Shown piece after piece: positions 6,349-45,421 of a DNA stretch of 64,000 nt. Below the pieces are notes generated by a model that did no database searches, was not told the DNA's origin, and worked only from the letters and a program-made list of their open reading frames with translations. Where the stretch lies: the NCBI GenBank assembly GCA_965214045.1, contig OZ243935.1, positions 2,578,409 through 2,642,408 of the forward strand, read 5' to 3'. A program made the translations under genes and the position numbers. This DNA is from Candidatus Poribacteria bacterium (GTDB taxonomy: Bacteria > Poribacteria > WGA-4E > WGA-3G). The number at the start of each line of letters is the position of its first letter. Position 1 is the first letter of the stretch.

Positions 6349-6975
6349 TTAGTTATCGTCATCATCATCGTCATGTCCGTTATCATCGTCGTGTTCGTCG
6401 TCCTCATCATGCTCATCTTCTTCCTCGTCATGAACATCATCCATGTTATCATGATCGTCGTCCATGTCCTCGTCATGTTCATCGTCTTCCTCATGCTCGA
6501 CATCCATTTTCTCATGAGCATCTTCGTGCGCGTCGCCGTGTTCTTGCTGGATGACCCGCTCTTGGGCTTCTTGTTGATTAATCCAATCAACGAATAATTG
6601 AATTTCAGCCTCCGTCAGTGGCGGTCCACCAGGGGGCATTCTACCGGAAACGATCTCTTCAACGACTTCACTCTCTTCTGCGTTCCCCGGGATGAACGCA
6701 GGACCGTGTTTGCCTCCCGCTATAAATGATTCGTATGTCCTGAAATCCAGACCGTGAGGACCATCGGCGACGTGACACCCCGAAAGCGCGCATCTCGCCG
6801 TAAGGATGGGCAGAACGTTCTGTTCAAAGGAAGTTTCGACGGTATCAACGGATTCGTGAACGTCCATCGGCGATATATGATCAGGTATTAGCAAGTTACT
6901 CCGATCGCGCGCACATCCAAGTACGCAAAGTATTACCGCAACAGTTAAGAAAAAAAATCGTGTGCTTGTAGTCAT
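6349..6975 (-). CDS. lipoprotein with planctomycete-type cytochrome-c-like domain and a ~65-residue Asp/Glu/His-rich C-terminal tail
   Basis: Lipobox VLGC. LPILTARCALSGCHV...RMPPGGPPLTEAEIQLFVDWI resembles PSCyt-type domains. The tail is HEDAHEKMDVEHEEDDEHDEDMDDDHDNMDDVHDEEEDEHDEDDEHDDDNGHDDDDDDN. Confidence 0.7.
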   Translation of the reverse strand: MTTSTRFFFLTVAVILCVLGCARDRSNLLIPDHISPMDVHESVDTVETSFEQNVLPILTARCALSGCHVADGPHGLDFRTYESFIAGGKHGPAFIPGNAEESEVVEEIVSGRMPPGGPPLTEAEIQLFVDWINQQEAQERVIQQEHGDAHEDAHEKMDVEHEEDDEHDEDMDDDHDNMDDVHDEEEDEHDEDDEHDDDNGHDDDDDDN

Positions 6976-11234: not shown

Positions 11235-11343
11235 TTATCGGCGGTCAACCCTTAATTTGGATGATTGAAGCACTCCTGTCAGATTAGGTGATAATGCGAT
11301 GTTCCTAACACTCATTTACTGCTAAGTCGTCCCAACAACAGGA

Positions 11344-13062
11344 GTGAGCATAATGATAGACCTGAGTAATGTGCTGAGAGCTTCAGCGAACGTTCCAGTG
11401 CAGGCACATTGGGATCCAATCGAGAATACAGCGAATAACTTGCATCGATCGACAAAAGAGAAGTTTAATCGAGCCAAGGCACAGTGGAAAGAACCGATAG
11501 ATATGACATGGGAACAGTGGTTGGAGGTGTTCAATCCCGGACCCGCACATGTCCTGAAAAACTACAACACGACGGATTTTCAAGCCTTTCTTCCGCCATC
11601 AACCGTCGACGTGGGAGATGTCTGGGACTTGGATCCGGAAGGGATTCTCCCCTTTCTTTGCCAGTTCCATCCCAGCGCAACAATGAATGTCAAATATGGT
11701 CAGAACGGAGCAAAGGCGTGCTTACGGGCACTTTCGTCTGAATATGCTGACATTGTTTTCCGAATCCATGCGCGCTTCGCACTGGACGCGTCTATTGATG
11801 CCTACTTGATGCCAGCGCAATTTGCTGGACATCTGCTCATCAATCGCAACAGCGGAACGATTTGCCAATTTACGCTATCGCTTCCTAATCGCAATAGTAA
11901 TGTAGATATCGGTGCTTTTAGAACTCATGATATAGGATTTGTCCCTCGCATGGAACTCTACAGTTTATCGGAGATGCAACCAGAATCGATTGTTTGGGAG
12001 GTAGCCATCACGGAGGAAGAAGCCAATAAAAAGTTTCAGAGCGCACTCTACAAGTTTGCTGAAATTGAGTGGACCCCGATTGAAGATGCAGTCGAACTCG
12101 CGAAATCATCGAATCGTCCGATCCATGCGGTCCTCCTATTCGGTGTCCTCGACGATGAATCCTGCTGAGGAACCGGCAAAGCCTTGAGAGCGGGTCCGCT
12201 CTCCTCACCGAAAATTATCAATTTGCTCAACACGTACTTTGTGAACGTCTGGGTTCTGTTCAGAGAGTTGCCCGAGCTACAAACGGGTACCAAAGGGATA
12301 GCAGCGGGTGCCTTGGCAACGCAACTCCGACAACGTTACTCCGATTCTGTGGACAGCCTGACACTCACCGCCGACTTGGAAGTGATTGAACACCTCCCCA
12401 GTAAGAATTTATTTCATCCGGATTATCGCCTACCTCACAGTGAGCGGATACCCCGATATTTGGAGATGCTTAAGTCATCTGTGGGTATGGAAGTTGTGCC
12501 ACAAAAACCGAGGAAATTTGGAAAGCACGATCTATCCCGTAGACTTGCCGAGGCCTATGAAAAATTTGGAAAACCTGCACCTGATTTTTCTGCAACAGAT
12601 ATTGATGGCGAACCCATTTCGCTCCAGCAATATCGTGGGAAAGTCATCCTCCTCGATTTCTGGGCAGTCTGGAGCGGTTTCTGCGTCGGAGAGATGCTGA
12701 AGGTCAAGAAGATATACGATACCTATAAAGATCAGGGATTTGACCTCATCGGAGTCAGCCTCGATACCGATGAAACGAAGTTGCGAAATTACCTTAAGGA
12801 AAATGACATCCTGTGGCGGCAAATTTACACTGGACTGGAACGCCAGAGTCCCCTCGCGCAACAGTATGATGTTCGTTCTATTCCAGCGCGGTGGCTTATC
12901 GATAGGGATGGCACGCTGATCGCCCATGAAGCTACCCACAAGTTGATCTCTCGCAGAGGTAGGGAGGCAGATTTAGAGCAGTTGGTGGCAGAAGCAGTGA
13001 CGAATGAAAAGTCCACGGAATCTGTAAAATCCGCGACAATCCGCGATTCAGACGATTACTAA
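11344..13062 (+). CDS. candidate selenoprotein: unknown N-domain + thioredoxin-like domain with C-U at the redox site + C-terminal TlpA/redoxin-like domain (requires UGA 12166-12168 read as Sec)
   Basis: ORFs 11344..12168 and 12184..13062 share a frame and are separated only by TGA plus 15 open nt. The junction AVLLFGVLDDESC-U-GTGKALRAGPLSSPKIINLLNTYFVNVWV matches a Trx-fold active-site layout. A hairpin lies 18 nt downstream of the TGA. The start may be the ATG at 11353. Confidence 0.55.
12186..12203 (+). promoter_or_regulatory. SECIS-like hairpin downstream of UGA 12166
   Basis: GAGAGCG-GGTC-CGCTCTC. The loop G residues lie 27-28 nt after the U of UGA. Confidence 0.45.
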
Positions 13063-16873: not shown

Positions 16874-17130
16874 GTATGCATACGTGCCATTGTGTGCGTT
16901 CCCGATCCTTTGAATGTCTCTCGTCGCACTGCAAACTAACGATTCAACTTCAGCCGCTGGCTGAACCACTTCTCTGTTTGCTGCAAAGCATTTGCAGCAC
17001 AGATCAACTTTTGAAAAAGGAAGAATCAGAGACAATGCTCCAGAACGCTTACGACTATAGTGTAAAATGACAAGGTAAAGGATAAACATCCGTGGGGTCT
17101 TCTCCTTTACCTGCCACAAGGAGAAATATC

Positions 17131-17979
17131 ATGACACACGTGAGTTTTTATACCTTTCACCTTGATGCCGCAACCGAGCGGCTCATTGCTTCCTATCCGC
17201 TATTGACTGCCGAAGCGGAACAGGTCCTTGCCCGTGAGGGTTCTGATGCAGCACACGATAAACTTGTTGTCTCTAACCTGCGACTCGTAAAGTCCATCGT
17301 CCTCAAATTTAGCGGATGTGGACTTGAAGCGGTAGACCTCTTCGGTGCAGGCGTGACAGGTCTTGTGAAAGCCGTCCCTGAGTATCTCCCGTCTCGCGGC
17401 AGGTTCGCCACCTTCGCTCGCCACCCTATCCGAGGCGAAATTCTCAATTACATTGATACCGCCCGAACCGCCTTCCATATACCGGATCCCCTGCGTCGTC
17501 AAGTAAATCAGTATCGTGCTGCCTGTCAGAAACAAGGTGCGGCTGCGACTGACGCAGCCATCGCCGAGGCATTAGGATGGCGTGTTGAAGTGGTTGCGTA
17601 TGTGCGCGATTGTTCGGCACATCAGCAGATGTCCAGTCTTGATGCCCTGCCAGCGGATCCGGACGATGAGATAACGTTAAGTGAAACCCTTGCTGTCGCG
17701 TCTAAGGATCTTGACGCGTTTGAAACTTCATACGATTTAGCAGTATACCTTGGGAAAGTCCCGCGTCGTGAGGCGGACGTGCTTCGTTTGCGGTGGGGGA
17801 TCGGGGTGCCGGAGGCGTTGAGCCTGCGCGCGGTCGCTGCACGGCTTGGGATGTCTCGGTCCTCAGTTTCACGAGTGGAACATGATACACTTGAGATACT
17901 CCGTGAACTCGCTCGGCAAGAGTTGGGTGATGGAAGTTTTATTCTCCCGAGAAGTCAGCATCCACCTCACAACGTTTGA
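17131..17979 (+). CDS. sigma-70 family RNA polymerase sigma factor (group-3-like)
   Basis: ATG at 17131 preceded by AAGGAGA. Region 2: NLRLVKSIVLKF...FATFARHPIRGEI. Region 4 HTH: LSLRAVAARLGMSRSSVSRVEHDTL. A 10-bp inverted repeat AGGTAAAGGA/TCCTTTACCT sits just upstream. Confidence 0.85.
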   Translation: MTHVSFYTFHLDAATERLIASYPLLTAEAEQVLAREGSDAAHDKLVVSNLRLVKSIVLKFSGCGLEAVDLFGAGVTGLVKAVPEYLPSRGRFATFARHPIRGEILNYIDTARTAFHIPDPLRRQVNQYRAACQKQGAAATDAAIAEALGWRVEVVAYVRDCSAHQQMSSLDALPADPDDEITLSETLAVASKDLDAFETSYDLAVYLGKVPRREADVLRLRWGIGVPEALSLRAVAARLGMSRSSVSRVEHDTLEILRELARQELGDGSFILPRSQHPPHNV

Positions 17980-44335: not shown

Positions 44336-45421
44336 ATGGAAAACGAGAACGGTAAACCCAAGTTTATTCAGTCTGGCAGGTCCGTCATCGACTGCGATCT
44401 CCACAATCGGCTCCCCTCACATCAGATGCTCTACCCGTACCTACCCGATTACTGGTGCGACTATTGCGAGGAATCCGGCTTTCCCGGACCCGATGCAGAC
44501 GACTATCCTGAGGGTGTCCCGACTTCATCACGCCCGGAAATTATACAGCCCTCAGAAAACCGTCCCGCGTCGGATTTGGCACTTCTGCGTCAACACGCCC
44601 TCGATTTCTGGGAAGTCGAATACGGCATACTCACTTGTGGGTATCGGGTCCAGAGCGTACACAACGAAGACTTCGCCGCGGCACTCGCTTCGGCAATCAA
44701 TGATTGGCAGATTGAGCATTGGCTGGATCCAGAACCCCGCTTACGCGGTTCCCTGATTGTACCGAGTCAAAACCCAGAACTCGCTGCGAAGGAAATTGAG
44801 CGTCTGGGTGGACATCCGGGGTTCGTACAGGTCATGCTACCCGCTCGGTCACAAACACCTTACGGCAACAGACGTTATCATCCGATCTACGCCGCCGCAG
44901 TACGGCATCAACTCGCAATCGGCATCCATTACGGCGGTGCACCTGGACTACCACCGACCTCCGTGGGATGGACCTCGACCTATTTGGAGGAGTACGTCGG
45001 TATGTCCCAAGTGTTTCAAGCGCAGGTCCTGAGTCTCGTATCAGAGGGAGTCTTTGAGGTGTTTCCCGACTTACGCGTTGTGCTCATAGAGACCGGTGTC
45101 ACCTGGATGCCATCACTCATGTGGCGATTCGATAAGGAGTGGCGCGGCTTACGACATCTGACCCCGTGGGTCAAACAGCCACCGTCAGCGTATATCCGTC
45201 AACATATTCGTATGACGCTCCAACCGATCGATGCGCCACCAACCGCCGCAGAACTCCTTCAGATTGTTGGTCAACTCGATTCCGAGGACATGTTGATGTT
45301 TTCGAGCGACTATCCGCATTGGCACTTCGACTCACCCGACGAAGCGTTCCCTTCGCAGTTACCCCAGTCATTAGCACGTAAGATCTTGTCCGAAAATGCA
45401 AGGGAATTCTATCACTTTTGA
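44336..45421 (+). CDS. amidohydrolase-2 family protein
   Basis: I prefer ATG 44336 (AAGGA SD), downstream of the previous gene's stop. Motifs DCDLHN and FSSDYPHWHFD. Paralogue of 47303..48379. Confidence 0.85.
   Translation: MENENGKPKFIQSGRSVIDCDLHNRLPSHQMLYPYLPDYWCDYCEESGFPGPDADDYPEGVPTSSRPEIIQPSENRPASDLALLRQHALDFWEVEYGILTCGYRVQSVHNEDFAAALASAINDWQIEHWLDPEPRLRGSLIVPSQNPELAAKEIERLGGHPGFVQVMLPARSQTPYGNRRYHPIYAAAVRHQLAIGIHYGGAPGLPPTSVGWTSTYLEEYVGMSQVFQAQVLSLVSEGVFEVFPDLRVVLIETGVTWMPSLMWRFDKEWRGLRHLTPWVKQPPSAYIRQHIRMTLQPIDAPPTAAELLQIVGQLDSEDMLMFSSDYPHWHFDSPDEAFPSQLPQSLARKILSENAREFYHF

What the first reader, a model, noticed from the sequence alone, without database searches (positions are those of the whole stretch)
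11344..13062. In-frame UGA joins two ORFs into one thioredoxin-fold protein: selenocysteine candidate at the nucleophilic-Cys position
ORF 11344..12168 ends ...LLFGVLDDESC-TGA. ORF 12184..13062 is in the same frame, and the 15 nt between them are open (GTGKA). Read through, the junction is PIHAVLLFGVLDDESC-U-GTGKALRAGPLSSPKIINLLNTYFVNVWV. That is a beta-strand, a redox site, a helix and a ..LN..FV.V.V strand, the layout of thioredoxin-like domains that carry W-C-G-P-C-K-x-L. By that alignment U replaces the first (nucleophilic) Cys, the second Cys position is Gly, and a Cys directly precedes U (a vicinal C-U pair). Eighteen nt after the UGA there is a 7-bp hairpin GAGAGCG-GGTC-CGCTCTC (12186-12203). 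Its loop G residues lie 27-28 nt from the UGA, which fits bacterial SECIS geometry; from memory, GGUC is also the apical loop of the E. coli fdhF SECIS. No Shine-Dalgarno precedes the TTG at 12184. TGA acts as an ordinary stop elsewhere in the window (for example at 120-122, 17977-17979 and 45419-45421).
Basis: partly seen in the sequence, partly recalled or inferred. Interest (0 to 1): 0.85.

Follow-up and report, generated by a model that had tools for sequence, protein, structure and literature searches.

The report
Bacterial selenoprotein N with in-frame UGA
The two ORFs are one gene of a sponge-symbiont bacterium (Candidatus Poribacteria) whose internal UGA very probably encodes selenocysteine, and the protein is a bacterial relative of animal selenoprotein N, a human muscle-disease protein whose chemistry is still poorly understood.

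Summary
ORFs 11353-12165 and 12169-13062 are joined by UGA 12166-12168. In 57/57 distinct Poribacteria junction sequences (45-86% identical proteins) and 6 distant bacterial relatives the codon is always TGA, the frame stays open, and protein conservation resumes right after it. The 7-bp hairpin with GGUC loop (12186-12203) meets the four published bacterial-SECIS criteria. It is conserved at synonymous sites and shows compensatory changes at two stem pairs. It is absent from Cys-containing homologues, even one encoding the identical peptide LRAGPLS. The N-terminal ~380 aa are homologous to animal selenoprotein N (SELENON/SEPN1; E=1e-48 across the UGA), with the same Ser-Cys-Sec-Gly site at the nucleophilic position of a DsbH/Thioredoxin_7-type thioredoxin fold (AlphaFold pLDDT 93). 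The bacterial protein lacks SELENON's EF-hand and membrane anchor. It carries an extra C-terminal TlpA-like domain whose CxxC is degenerate (SGFC). At least 121 of 150 family representatives stop at this UGA and are unnamed or 'hypothetical'. I found no prior description of bacterial SelenoN. Sec machinery is not in the window, but SelA/SelB/SelD are reported for Poribacteria WGA-3G, which carries an orthologue.

The parts
11340..11344 (+). Shine-Dalgarno-like AGGAG, 8 nt upstream of ATG 11353
   Evidence: Read directly from the sequence.
11353..13062 (+). Single read-through coding sequence: 271 aa + Sec272 + 297 aa = 569 aa, ending in stop TAA 13060-13062
   Evidence: The read-through product aligns to read-through vertebrate SELENON over aa 71-348, across U272, with E=1.4e-48.
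11401..11967 (+). Beta-rich N-terminal domain of the SelenoN-homology core (about aa 17-205; boundaries transferred from the model of P0176)
   Evidence: AlphaFold model of the Cys-form homologue has strands at 53-241. The domain has no good PDB match. It is homologous to SELENON residues ~209-440.
12013..12492 (+). Thioredoxin-like domain carrying the S-C-U-G site (about aa 221-380)
   Evidence: One search shows beta-alpha-beta-alpha-beta-beta-alpha topology. One search matches DsbH 2ju5, 7tkv, 2lst, 3ira and ERp19 1sen. Searches give weak Thioredoxin_7 / Thioredox_DsbH sequence hits.
12163..12165 (+). Cys271 codon TGC directly before the UGA (vicinal Cys of the C-U pair)
   Evidence: TGC in 57/57 distinct Poribacteria junctions. 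TGT or TGC in other lineages.
12166..12168 (+). In-frame UGA, proposed selenocysteine codon (Sec272)
   Evidence: TGA in 57/57 distinct Poribacteria junctions, in 6 other bacterial loci and in 2 eukaryotic SELENON transcripts. It is aligned with TGT/TGC in the Cys forms.
12186..12203 (+). Bacterial SECIS-type hairpin: stem 12186-12192 / 12197-12203, loop GGUC 12193-12196
   Evidence: -10.7 kcal/mol; synonymous sites frozen; 97.7% of cells paired, 2 pairs with compensatory changes; absent in Cys forms; published bSECIS criteria.
12568..12927 (+). C-terminal TlpA/ResA-like thioredoxin domain (aa 406-525)
   Evidence: Pfam AhpC-TSA 4.8e-20, Redoxin 3.6e-18 and Thioredoxin_8 1.1e-14, all above the curated cut-offs. 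NCBIfam ResA/TlpA hits fall below the equivalog cut-offs.
12670..12684 (+). Degenerate active-site motif W-S-G-F-C of the TlpA-like domain; only the second Cys is retained
   Evidence: Orthologues have W-[N/S/H]-[GS]-F-C, and only L029 has CGFC.

Best explanation
One gene (11353-13062) encodes a 569-aa selenoprotein. During translation the UGA at 12166-12168 is decoded as selenocysteine. The 7-bp hairpin with GGUC loop, 17 nt downstream, acts as a bacterial SECIS that recruits SelB carrying Sec-tRNA(Sec). The product is a bacterial homologue of eukaryotic selenoprotein N. It has a beta-rich domain followed by a DsbH/Thioredoxin_7-type thioredoxin fold. The redox centre of that fold is the vicinal pair Cys271-Sec272 in the motif S-C-U-G, with Sec at the N-terminus of helix alpha1, the nucleophilic position. 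By analogy with SELENON and with the GCUG end of thioredoxin reductase, I infer that it cycles between a selenol/thiol state and a Cys-Sec selenenylsulfide, and that it reduces oxidised thiols or peroxide-derived species on a substrate. In this Poribacteria orthologue group the core is fused to a TlpA-like domain that keeps only one Cys. That domain may serve as an intramolecular relay or substrate-holding partner. Shown here: UGA conservation, coding continuity, SECIS features, homology and fold. Inferred: actual Sec insertion, catalytic chemistry, and the role of the TlpA-like domain.
For: UGA and frame. The codons between the UGA and the hairpin vary synonymously while the amino acids are kept, so that stretch is translated. 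SECIS: the synonymous-codon entropy of the 7 hairpin codons is 0-0.64, and 0-0.22 for six of them, against about 0.8-1.4 in most flanking codons. The hairpin meets the published model of loop 3-9 nt, stem 4-16 bp, G in the first two loop positions, spacing 16-37 nt and MFE <= -7.5; the values here are 4 nt GGUC, 7 bp, 24 nt and -10.7. Compensatory changes G-C to A-U at pair 26/31 and A-U to C-G at pair 21/36 occur in distant lineages, and 97.7% of cells are paired against 36-70% when the partners are slid. Three Cys-form homologues lack the hairpin (0 to -1.9 kcal/mol), including L065, which encodes the same peptide LRAGPLS with other codons. Cys/Sec pairs. Family-wide, at least 121 of 150 representatives end at the Cys before U. 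Homology to SELENON: BLASTP 4e-38 and 1.4e-48, and vertebrate and invertebrate transcripts have UGA at the same codon. Fold. Machinery: Table S4 of PMC5649159 lists SelA=2, SelB=1 and SelD=1 for Ca. Poribacteria WGA-3G, and locus L015 is from that genome and has the same TGA and hairpin. PMC13582414 reports Sec-containing hydrogenases in Poribacteria.
Against: There is no direct evidence of selenium incorporation. No selA, selB, selC or selD and no tRNA at all were found in the window or in the 59 related loci, so machinery in this particular genome is unverified. Rfam has no match for the hairpin. Most of the sequences are closely related, so invariance carries less weight than the few compensatory events; only 5 cells in 2 pairs show double changes, and the tested structure was derived from one of the sequences. 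The window's orthologue group has replaced the thioredoxin-fold cis-Pro (xPVD) with Ser (DSVD) and has no signal peptide, unlike most bacterial relatives, so its activity may differ from that of the rest of the family. No conserved redox partner is found in the gene neighbourhoods.
Confidence: 0.88

Rival explanations
1. These are two separate genes. A 271-aa protein ends at a genuine TGA stop, and a second protein starts at TTG 12184 or further downstream, possibly translationally coupled.
For: Gene callers and NCBI annotate it this way: 271-aa 'hypothetical protein' entries, and separate downstream ORFs called in L061, L062, L064 and L068.
Against: The stop is TGA in 63 of 63 bacterial junctions and never TAA or TAG. 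Protein conservation starts at the first codon after TGA, upstream of any possible start, and L062 has GCT at the position of the TTG. There is no Shine-Dalgarno sequence and no terminator after 12168. The thioredoxin fold would be cut between beta1 and alpha1. Cys-form homologues and eukaryotic SELENON are single polypeptides.
Confidence: 0.03
2. This is programmed stop-codon read-through without selenocysteine. The hairpin stimulates near-cognate decoding of UGA (Trp, Cys or Arg), or produces a mixture of truncated and extended products.
For: Structures downstream of UGA can stimulate read-through independently of Sec, and the SELENON SRE is reported to do this in eukaryotes (PMC8704476). 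Sec machinery was not seen in the window.
Against: The aligned residue in the read-through homologues is almost always Cys, the Sec/Cys signature. The hairpin matches bSECIS geometry with an invariant GGUC loop. SelA, SelB and SelD are reported in a Poribacteria genome that carries an orthologue. In animals the same codon in the same family is established as Sec (PMC10650576).
Confidence: 0.06
3. The site is a pseudogene or assembly error, or UGA is reassigned as a sense codon in this organism.
For: None beyond the bare presence of an internal stop.
Against: The same TGA occurs in independent assemblies of dozens of Poribacteria species and in other lineages. Both halves are under purifying selection. 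TGA terminates 10 of 40 long ORFs in the window.
Confidence: 0.01

Closest known systems
Eukaryotic selenoprotein N (SELENON / SEPN1)
   Same: The two proteins are homologous over ~280 aa spanning the beta-rich domain and the thioredoxin-like domain (E=1e-48). They share the S-C-U-G site with UGA at the same codon, and both families are almost exclusively Sec forms (PMC7539508). A conserved hairpin follows the UGA in both. In the one vertebrate examined, the SRE upper stem and tetraloop occupy the same offsets (+21..+36) as the bacterial hairpin.
   Different: The window protein has no N-terminal transmembrane anchor and no EF-hand. Sec insertion is directed by an in-frame bacterial SECIS rather than a 3'UTR SECIS. 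It has an extra C-terminal TlpA-like domain. In this orthologue group the cis-Pro is replaced by Ser. It has no signal peptide, so it is probably cytoplasmic, and it has no ER or SERCA context.
Bacterial SelB/SECIS-dependent selenoproteins (E. coli FdhF as the paradigm)
   Same: UGA is followed within the coding sequence by a short hairpin with G in the first loop positions, at a spacing inside the 16-37 nt range of the published bSECIS model. From memory, the fdhF apical loop is also GGUC.
   Different: The protein family is unrelated. Rfam has no matching model. SelB binding was not tested.
Thioredoxin reductase C-terminal G-C-U-G redox centre
   Same: Both have a vicinal Cys-Sec pair followed by Gly, which suggests a selenenylsulfide/selenolthiol couple (established chemistry for TrxR; inferred here).
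   Different: Here the pair lies at the CxxC position of a thioredoxin fold, not on a flexible C-terminal tail of a flavoenzyme. There is no FAD or NADPH domain.
DsbH / Thioredoxin_7 / DUF255-type thioredoxin-fold proteins and ER protein ERp19
   Same: These are the best structural matches for the Sec-bearing domain. They share the '..W.P.EEAL..AK...KP' lead-in to beta1.
   Different: Sequence scores are below the Pfam cut-offs. The motif is C-U-G-x-G instead of C-x-x-C. The loop before the active site is longer, and an unmatched ~200-aa beta-rich domain is attached N-terminally.
TlpA/ResA thiol-disulfide oxidoreductases, and curated thioredoxin-like bacterial selenoproteins (NCBIfam WAxxUGC, VPGUxxT)
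   Same: The C-terminal domain matches AhpC-TSA, Redoxin and Thioredoxin_8.
   Different: Its motif is W-S-G-F-C, so it has neither CxxC nor U. The Sec of this protein is in the other domain. Scores are far below the NCBIfam equivalog cut-offs.

Membership tests
Selenoprotein N (SELENON) family | Sequence homology across the conserved core on both sides of the Sec codon | tested here: met
   BLASTP 4e-38 against the wombat protein P0220. 1.4e-48 for read-through window protein against read-through vertebrate transcript L060, over aa 71-348. 3.4e-48 against the second eukaryote, L072.
Selenoprotein N (SELENON) family | Ser-Cys-Sec-Gly redox motif with UGA at the Sec position | tested here: met
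   The window reads DDESC-UGA-GTGK, and the vertebrate reads DDQSC-UGA-GSGR. That 'SCUG' is the hallmark motif is my own knowledge; the review read (PMC10650576) states only that the Trx domain contains the Sec.
Selenoprotein N (SELENON) family | Thioredoxin-like domain containing the Sec | tested here: met
   AlphaFold model of the Cys-form relative P0176 (pLDDT 93.4). Foldseek hits to DsbH, thioredoxin and ERp19. This was modelled on a homologue, not on the window protein itself.
Selenoprotein N (SELENON) family | Type II ER membrane anchor and luminal EF-hand calcium sensor | tested here: not met
   The window protein starts about 20 aa before the conserved core. It has no hydrophobic segment and no EF-hand hit. 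So it is a homologue of the catalytic core, not a full SELENON orthologue.
Selenoprotein N (SELENON) family | Redox regulation of SERCA2 / protection from ERO1-derived peroxides | not testable with these tools
   Functional property described in PMC10650576. The bacterial context has no counterpart.
Bacterial selenoprotein gene (SelB/SECIS-dependent) | In-frame UGA conserved among orthologues, with coding sequence continuing downstream | tested here: met
   57/57 distinct Poribacteria junctions plus 6 other bacterial loci. Codon-level conservation shown.
Bacterial selenoprotein gene (SelB/SECIS-dependent) | Homologues with Cys aligned to the UGA (Cys/Sec pair) | tested here: met
   P0176, P0181, P0218 and P0211, with TGT or TGC codons.
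Bacterial selenoprotein gene (SelB/SECIS-dependent) | bSECIS consensus: 3-9 nt loop with G in positions 1-2, 4-16 bp stem, 16-37 nt from the UGA, MFE <= -7.5 kcal/mol | tested here: met
   GGUC loop, 7 bp stem, 24 nt spacing, -10.7 kcal/mol. Covariation and loss in Cys forms shown.
Bacterial selenoprotein gene (SelB/SECIS-dependent) | selA, selB, selC (tRNA-Sec) and selD present in the same genome | tested here: inconclusive
   They are absent from the 64-kb window and from the related loci. SelA, SelB and SelD are reported for Poribacteria WGA-3G, which carries orthologue L015. The rest of this genome could not be read.
Bacterial selenoprotein gene (SelB/SECIS-dependent) | Selenium demonstrated in the protein | not testable with these tools
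   Requires 75Se labelling or mass spectrometry.
TlpA/ResA-like thiol-disulfide oxidoreductase (C-terminal domain only) | AhpC-TSA / Redoxin thioredoxin-fold domain | tested here: met
   Pfam scores of 72, 66 and 55 bits against cut-offs of about 26-27.
TlpA/ResA-like thiol-disulfide oxidoreductase (C-terminal domain only) | W-C-x-x-C active site | tested here: not met
   The window has W-S-G-F-C, and orthologues have N, S or H at the first position. Only L029 keeps CGFC.

The most novel reading that the evidence does not exclude
SELENON originated as a bacterial selenoprotein, and the 'selenocysteine redefinition element' (SRE) hairpin that follows the UGA in vertebrate SELENON mRNA is a remnant of the ancestral in-frame bacterial SECIS. 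In the window and in the vertebrate transcript L060, the stem and tetraloop occupy the same offsets from the UGA (5' arm +20/21..+26, loop +27..+30, 3' arm +31..+36/37) in homologous codons (L-R-x-x-x-L), with GAG/CUC shared in the arms. If true, a eukaryotic recoding element would be traced to a bacterial one. The abundant bacterial SelenoN genes, including the TlpA-fused and ECF-sigma-fused forms, would also become tractable models for the unknown chemistry of a human myopathy protein.
Probability: 0.15. Interest if true: 0.85.

Novelty: new variant of a known kind. Interest (0 to 1): 0.72.

Why it matters
SELENON mutations cause human SEPN1-related myopathies, yet the enzyme's substrates and catalytic cycle remain unclear, and the PDB sequence search found no solved structure of a relative. 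A large bacterial family with the same S-C-U-G site offers several things. Its proteins are soluble, small and expressible, and natural Cys variants are available for structure and enzymology. It provides evolutionary context, since the family is at least as diverse in bacteria as in eukaryotes (one search found 341 representative clusters at E<=0.001, bacterial and eukaryotic together). It also has domain fusions that hint at partners or regulation: a single-Cys TlpA-like domain and ECF sigma factors. In practical terms, the listed hits and the called genes are truncated ~270-aa proteins, unnamed or called 'hypothetical', often with a second downstream ORF. Neither Pfam nor NCBIfam has a model for the core. 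The prokaryotic-selenoproteome reviews and papers I searched do not list the family. It also adds a selenoprotein family to the repertoire of sponge symbionts, whose genomes were reported to be enriched in SelA and SelB (PMC5649159).

Tried and rejected
1. Other selenoprotein genes or Sec machinery in the window. An in-frame TGA scan gave no other convincing site: 47273 is two adjacent genes in one frame, each with its own ATG. No tRNA was found, and the neighbours are unrelated to selenium.
2. tRNA-Sec in the 59 related loci: none found.
3. Rfam. No family matched the hairpin, and no SECIS_1 hit was found in the vertebrate transcript L060. The latter may reflect a truncated 3'UTR or model limits.
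4. PDB sequence search with the N-terminal 402 aa found nothing significant. The profile search gave only weak DsbH/DUF255 hits.
I therefore used the exact upstream ORF and a natural Cys-form homologue instead.
7. Conserved gene neighbourhood as a clue to function. No consistent partner appears around the window gene, the Poribacteria paralogues or the distant relatives.
8. SRE/SECIS common descent. The one non-vertebrate eukaryotic transcript obtained (L072) keeps GGUC at the same offset but has no significant hairpin, with 177 of 500 shuffles folding as well. R and L at the arm codons are also constrained at the protein level in Cys forms, which makes convergence plausible. I therefore kept this only as a low-probability reading.
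9. Literature. Howard 2005 and 2007 on the SRE are not held. Eight full-text searches found no description of a bacterial SelenoN. This is absence in an open-access library, not proof of novelty.
Full report
OBSERVATION. The sequence is as described.
- An ORF starts at ATG 11353, with AGGAG 8 nt upstream; GTG 11344 is the mechanical start.
- It ends ...PIHAVLLFGVLDDESC-TGA at 12166-12168.
- The same frame continues open as GTGKALRAGPLSSPKIINLLNTYFVNVWV... to TAA 13060-13062.
- The hairpin GAGAGCG-GGTC-CGCTCTC lies at 12186-12203. The 18-nt hairpin folds at -10.7 kcal/mol. With short flanks it gives -11.5 kcal/mol, and 1 of 500 shuffles folds as well.
- TGA terminates 10 of 40 long ORFs in the window, so the code is standard.
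- No other in-frame TGA in the window looks like this one.

ORGANISM AND CONSERVATION.
- The upstream ORF has more than 1000 close homologues. All 120 listed are 258-294 aa long (most 271) and match only the query's first 67%, so they stop at or near the same point.
- A scan of species-representative genomes returned 59 loci, all from Candidatus Poribacteria, which are sponge symbionts, at 45-86% identity. Several chromosomes carry two paralogues.
- All 57 loci that reach the junction have TGA there, never TAA or TAG, and an open frame after it. Together with the window they give 57 distinct junction sequences. Strongly conserved residues follow immediately: G[TS]GK.LRAGPLSS..I..LN..FVN.WV.
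- The codons between the UGA and the hairpin vary at synonymous sites (GGG/GGA/GGC, ACG/ACA/ACC, GGC/GGT) while the amino acids are kept, so this stretch is translated.

THE HAIRPIN IS A SECIS-TYPE ELEMENT.
- The seven codons that form the hairpin (TTG AGA GCG GGT CCG CTC TCC) have synonymous-codon entropies of 0-0.64, and 0-0.22 for six of them. Most flanking codons are at about 0.8-1.4.
- DNA from six distant, non-Poribacteria Sec-type relatives shows the same hairpin at the same offsets with an invariant GGUC loop. It also shows compensatory double changes: G-C to A-U at pair 26/31 (three lineages) and A-U to C-G at pair 21/36 (two lineages).
- On 19 distinct sequences, 97.7% of stem cells form standard pairs, against 36-70% when the 3' partners are slid by 1-3 columns. 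Two of the seven pairs carry changes on both sides.
- The decisive control is the Cys forms. L065 (TGT) encodes the identical peptide LRAGPLS, but as CUC CGU GCC GGG CCG CUG UCC, which cannot form the hairpin (-1.6 kcal/mol). L066 and L071 also lack it. The structure therefore goes with the UGA and not with the protein sequence.
- It satisfies all four constraints of the published bacterial SECIS model (PMC13188914): a 4-nt loop starting GG, a 7-bp stem, 24 nt between UGA and loop, and -10.7 kcal/mol.

WHAT THE PROTEIN IS.
- A search of 1.84 billion representatives with the exact upstream ORF found 341 clusters at E<=0.001. Of the top 150, 121 end exactly at the Cys before the UGA position under my motif filter, and two more missed by the filter end the same way. 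Only about seven read through, with Cys (P0176, P0181, P0211, P0218), Trp or Ala. One more, the wombat entry P0220, reads on only because its gene model skips the U.
- Among the hits are animal proteins with an EF-hand that end ...LWGALDDQSC (P0245, P0220 from wombat, and others). These are selenoprotein N.
- A vertebrate transcript (L060) reads SC-UGA-GSGRTLRETVLESSP.
- The read-through window protein aligns with the read-through vertebrate protein over residues 71-348, across U272, at E=1.4e-48.
- The gene is therefore a bacterial homologue of the SELENON core, with the same S-C-U-G site.

FOLD.
- An AlphaFold model of the natural Cys form P0176 is confident (pLDDT 93.4, pTM 0.86). It shows a beta-rich domain followed by a beta-alpha-beta-alpha-beta-beta-alpha unit, with the C-C(U) pair between beta1 and the N-terminus of alpha1.
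- Foldseek matches the latter unit to DsbH, Thioredox_DsbH/DUF255 domains, a Thermus thioredoxin and ER protein ERp19. The beta-rich domain has no good match.
- Weak sequence hits to Thioredoxin_7 (E=0.0018) and Thioredox_DsbH agree with this.

DIFFERENCES FROM SELENON.
- The window protein has no membrane anchor, no EF-hand and no signal peptide. Most non-Poribacteria relatives do have signal-peptide or lipoprotein-like N-termini.
- Residues 406-525 are a separate TlpA/ResA-like domain (Pfam AhpC-TSA 4.8e-20) whose motif is W-S-G-F-C. In orthologues it is W-[N/S/H]-[GS]-F-C, and only L029 has CGFC.
- Poribacteria also have core-only paralogues, with about 108 aa after U, and a third type.
- In the TlpA-fused group the thioredoxin-fold cis-Pro (xPVD in the other members and in animals) is replaced: Y[ST]DSVD.

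SEC MACHINERY.
- None is in the window or in the related loci.
- Published COG tables list SelA=2, SelB=1 and SelD=1 for Ca. Poribacteria WGA-3G (PMC5649159, Table S4). Locus L015, with the same TGA and hairpin, comes from that genome.
- The same paper reports SelA and SelB as enriched in sponge symbionts. A 2026 study lists Poribacteria among phyla with Sec-containing hydrogenases (PMC13582414).

MECHANISM.
- Shown: a conserved recoded UGA with a SECIS-type hairpin, in a SELENON-homologous thioredoxin-fold protein.
- Inferred: SelB-dependent Sec insertion. A Cys271-Sec272 selenenylsulfide/selenolthiol redox couple acts as a reductase, by analogy with SELENON (PMC10650576) and with the thioredoxin reductase GCUG centre (my own knowledge). 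The single-Cys TlpA-like domain may act as an intramolecular partner.
- Rivals: two coupled genes, Sec-independent read-through, and pseudogene or recoded UGA. All are disfavoured for the reasons listed under rival explanations.

NOVELTY.
- Pfam and NCBIfam (June 2026) have no model for the core, and the only named bacterial hits are 'hypothetical protein'.
- Recent reviews and papers on prokaryotic selenoproteomes do not mention SelenoN.
- Targeted full-text searches found no bacterial SelenoN.
- I therefore rate it a new variant of a known kind: a known eukaryotic selenoprotein family found in bacteria, using the bacterial insertion signal and a new domain fusion. The caveat is that the literature search covers open-access texts only.

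SPECULATIVE LEAD.
- The vertebrate SELENON SRE hairpin (PMC8704476) has its upper stem and tetraloop at the same offsets from the UGA as the bacterial hairpin.
- The one non-vertebrate eukaryotic transcript examined keeps GGUC there but has no significant hairpin.
- The Arg and Leu codons that supply the arms are also constrained at the protein level.
- Common descent of the SRE from a bacterial SECIS is therefore possible but weakly supported; I put it at about 0.15.

Noticed in passing
window 12670-12684; orthologous loci L001-L034: The TlpA-like C-terminal domain has lost the first Cys of CxxC in almost all orthologues (W-[N/S/H]-[GS]-F-C). Only L029 keeps CGFC. A single conserved Cys next to a C-U centre suggests a relay or mixed-bond partner.
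   Followed up: partly
window ~12457-12474 (aa 369-374, YSDSVD); L001-L034, L052-L057: The thioredoxin-fold cis-Pro (xPV[DE] in core-only paralogues, other bacteria and animals) is replaced by Ser or Ala (Y[ST]DSVD) in the TlpA-fused group and the L052-type group. This is unusual for a thioredoxin-fold oxidoreductase.
   Followed up: partly
P0218, P0123; L065 1796-2824: Two family members, one Cys form and one Sec form, are fused to N-terminal ECF sigma-factor domains. A third has an ECF sigma gene immediately upstream. This hints that the domain may act as a redox sensor in sigma/anti-sigma modules in some bacteria.
   Followed up: partly
L005+L035, L009+L038, L020+L045, L014+L049, L031+L059, L054+L057: Single Poribacteria chromosomes carry two SelenoN paralogues, a TlpA-fused one and a core-only one, or two of the divergent type. 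All have the UGA and the hairpin.
   Followed up: partly
P0185, P0198, P0199, P0230, P0232, P0216: These relatives keep the beta-rich domain, split by a long coiled-coil insertion, and end before the thioredoxin part. P0232 is additionally fused to a caspase (Peptidase_C14) domain, and P0148 to leucine-rich repeats.
   Followed up: no
L060 1497-1545; window 12166-12203: The vertebrate SELENON SRE (-27 kcal/mol, 0 of 500 shuffles as stable) is centred on the same nucleotides after the UGA as the bacterial SECIS hairpin. The invertebrate-like transcript L072 keeps GGUC at offset 27-30 without a significant stem.
   Followed up: partly
window 12163-12169 and all Poribacteria junctions: The context TGC-TGA-G is invariant in 57/57 distinct Poribacteria junctions, including the synonymous third base of the Cys codon. 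Other lineages use TGT or TGC, but the G after TGA is universal. This is a possible context requirement for recoding.
   Followed up: no
window 6349-6975 (-): A small protein with a Planctomycete-type cytochrome c domain (PSCyt1) lies near the locus. A sigma-70 family gene lies at 17092-17979. No link to the selenoprotein gene was established.
   Followed up: no
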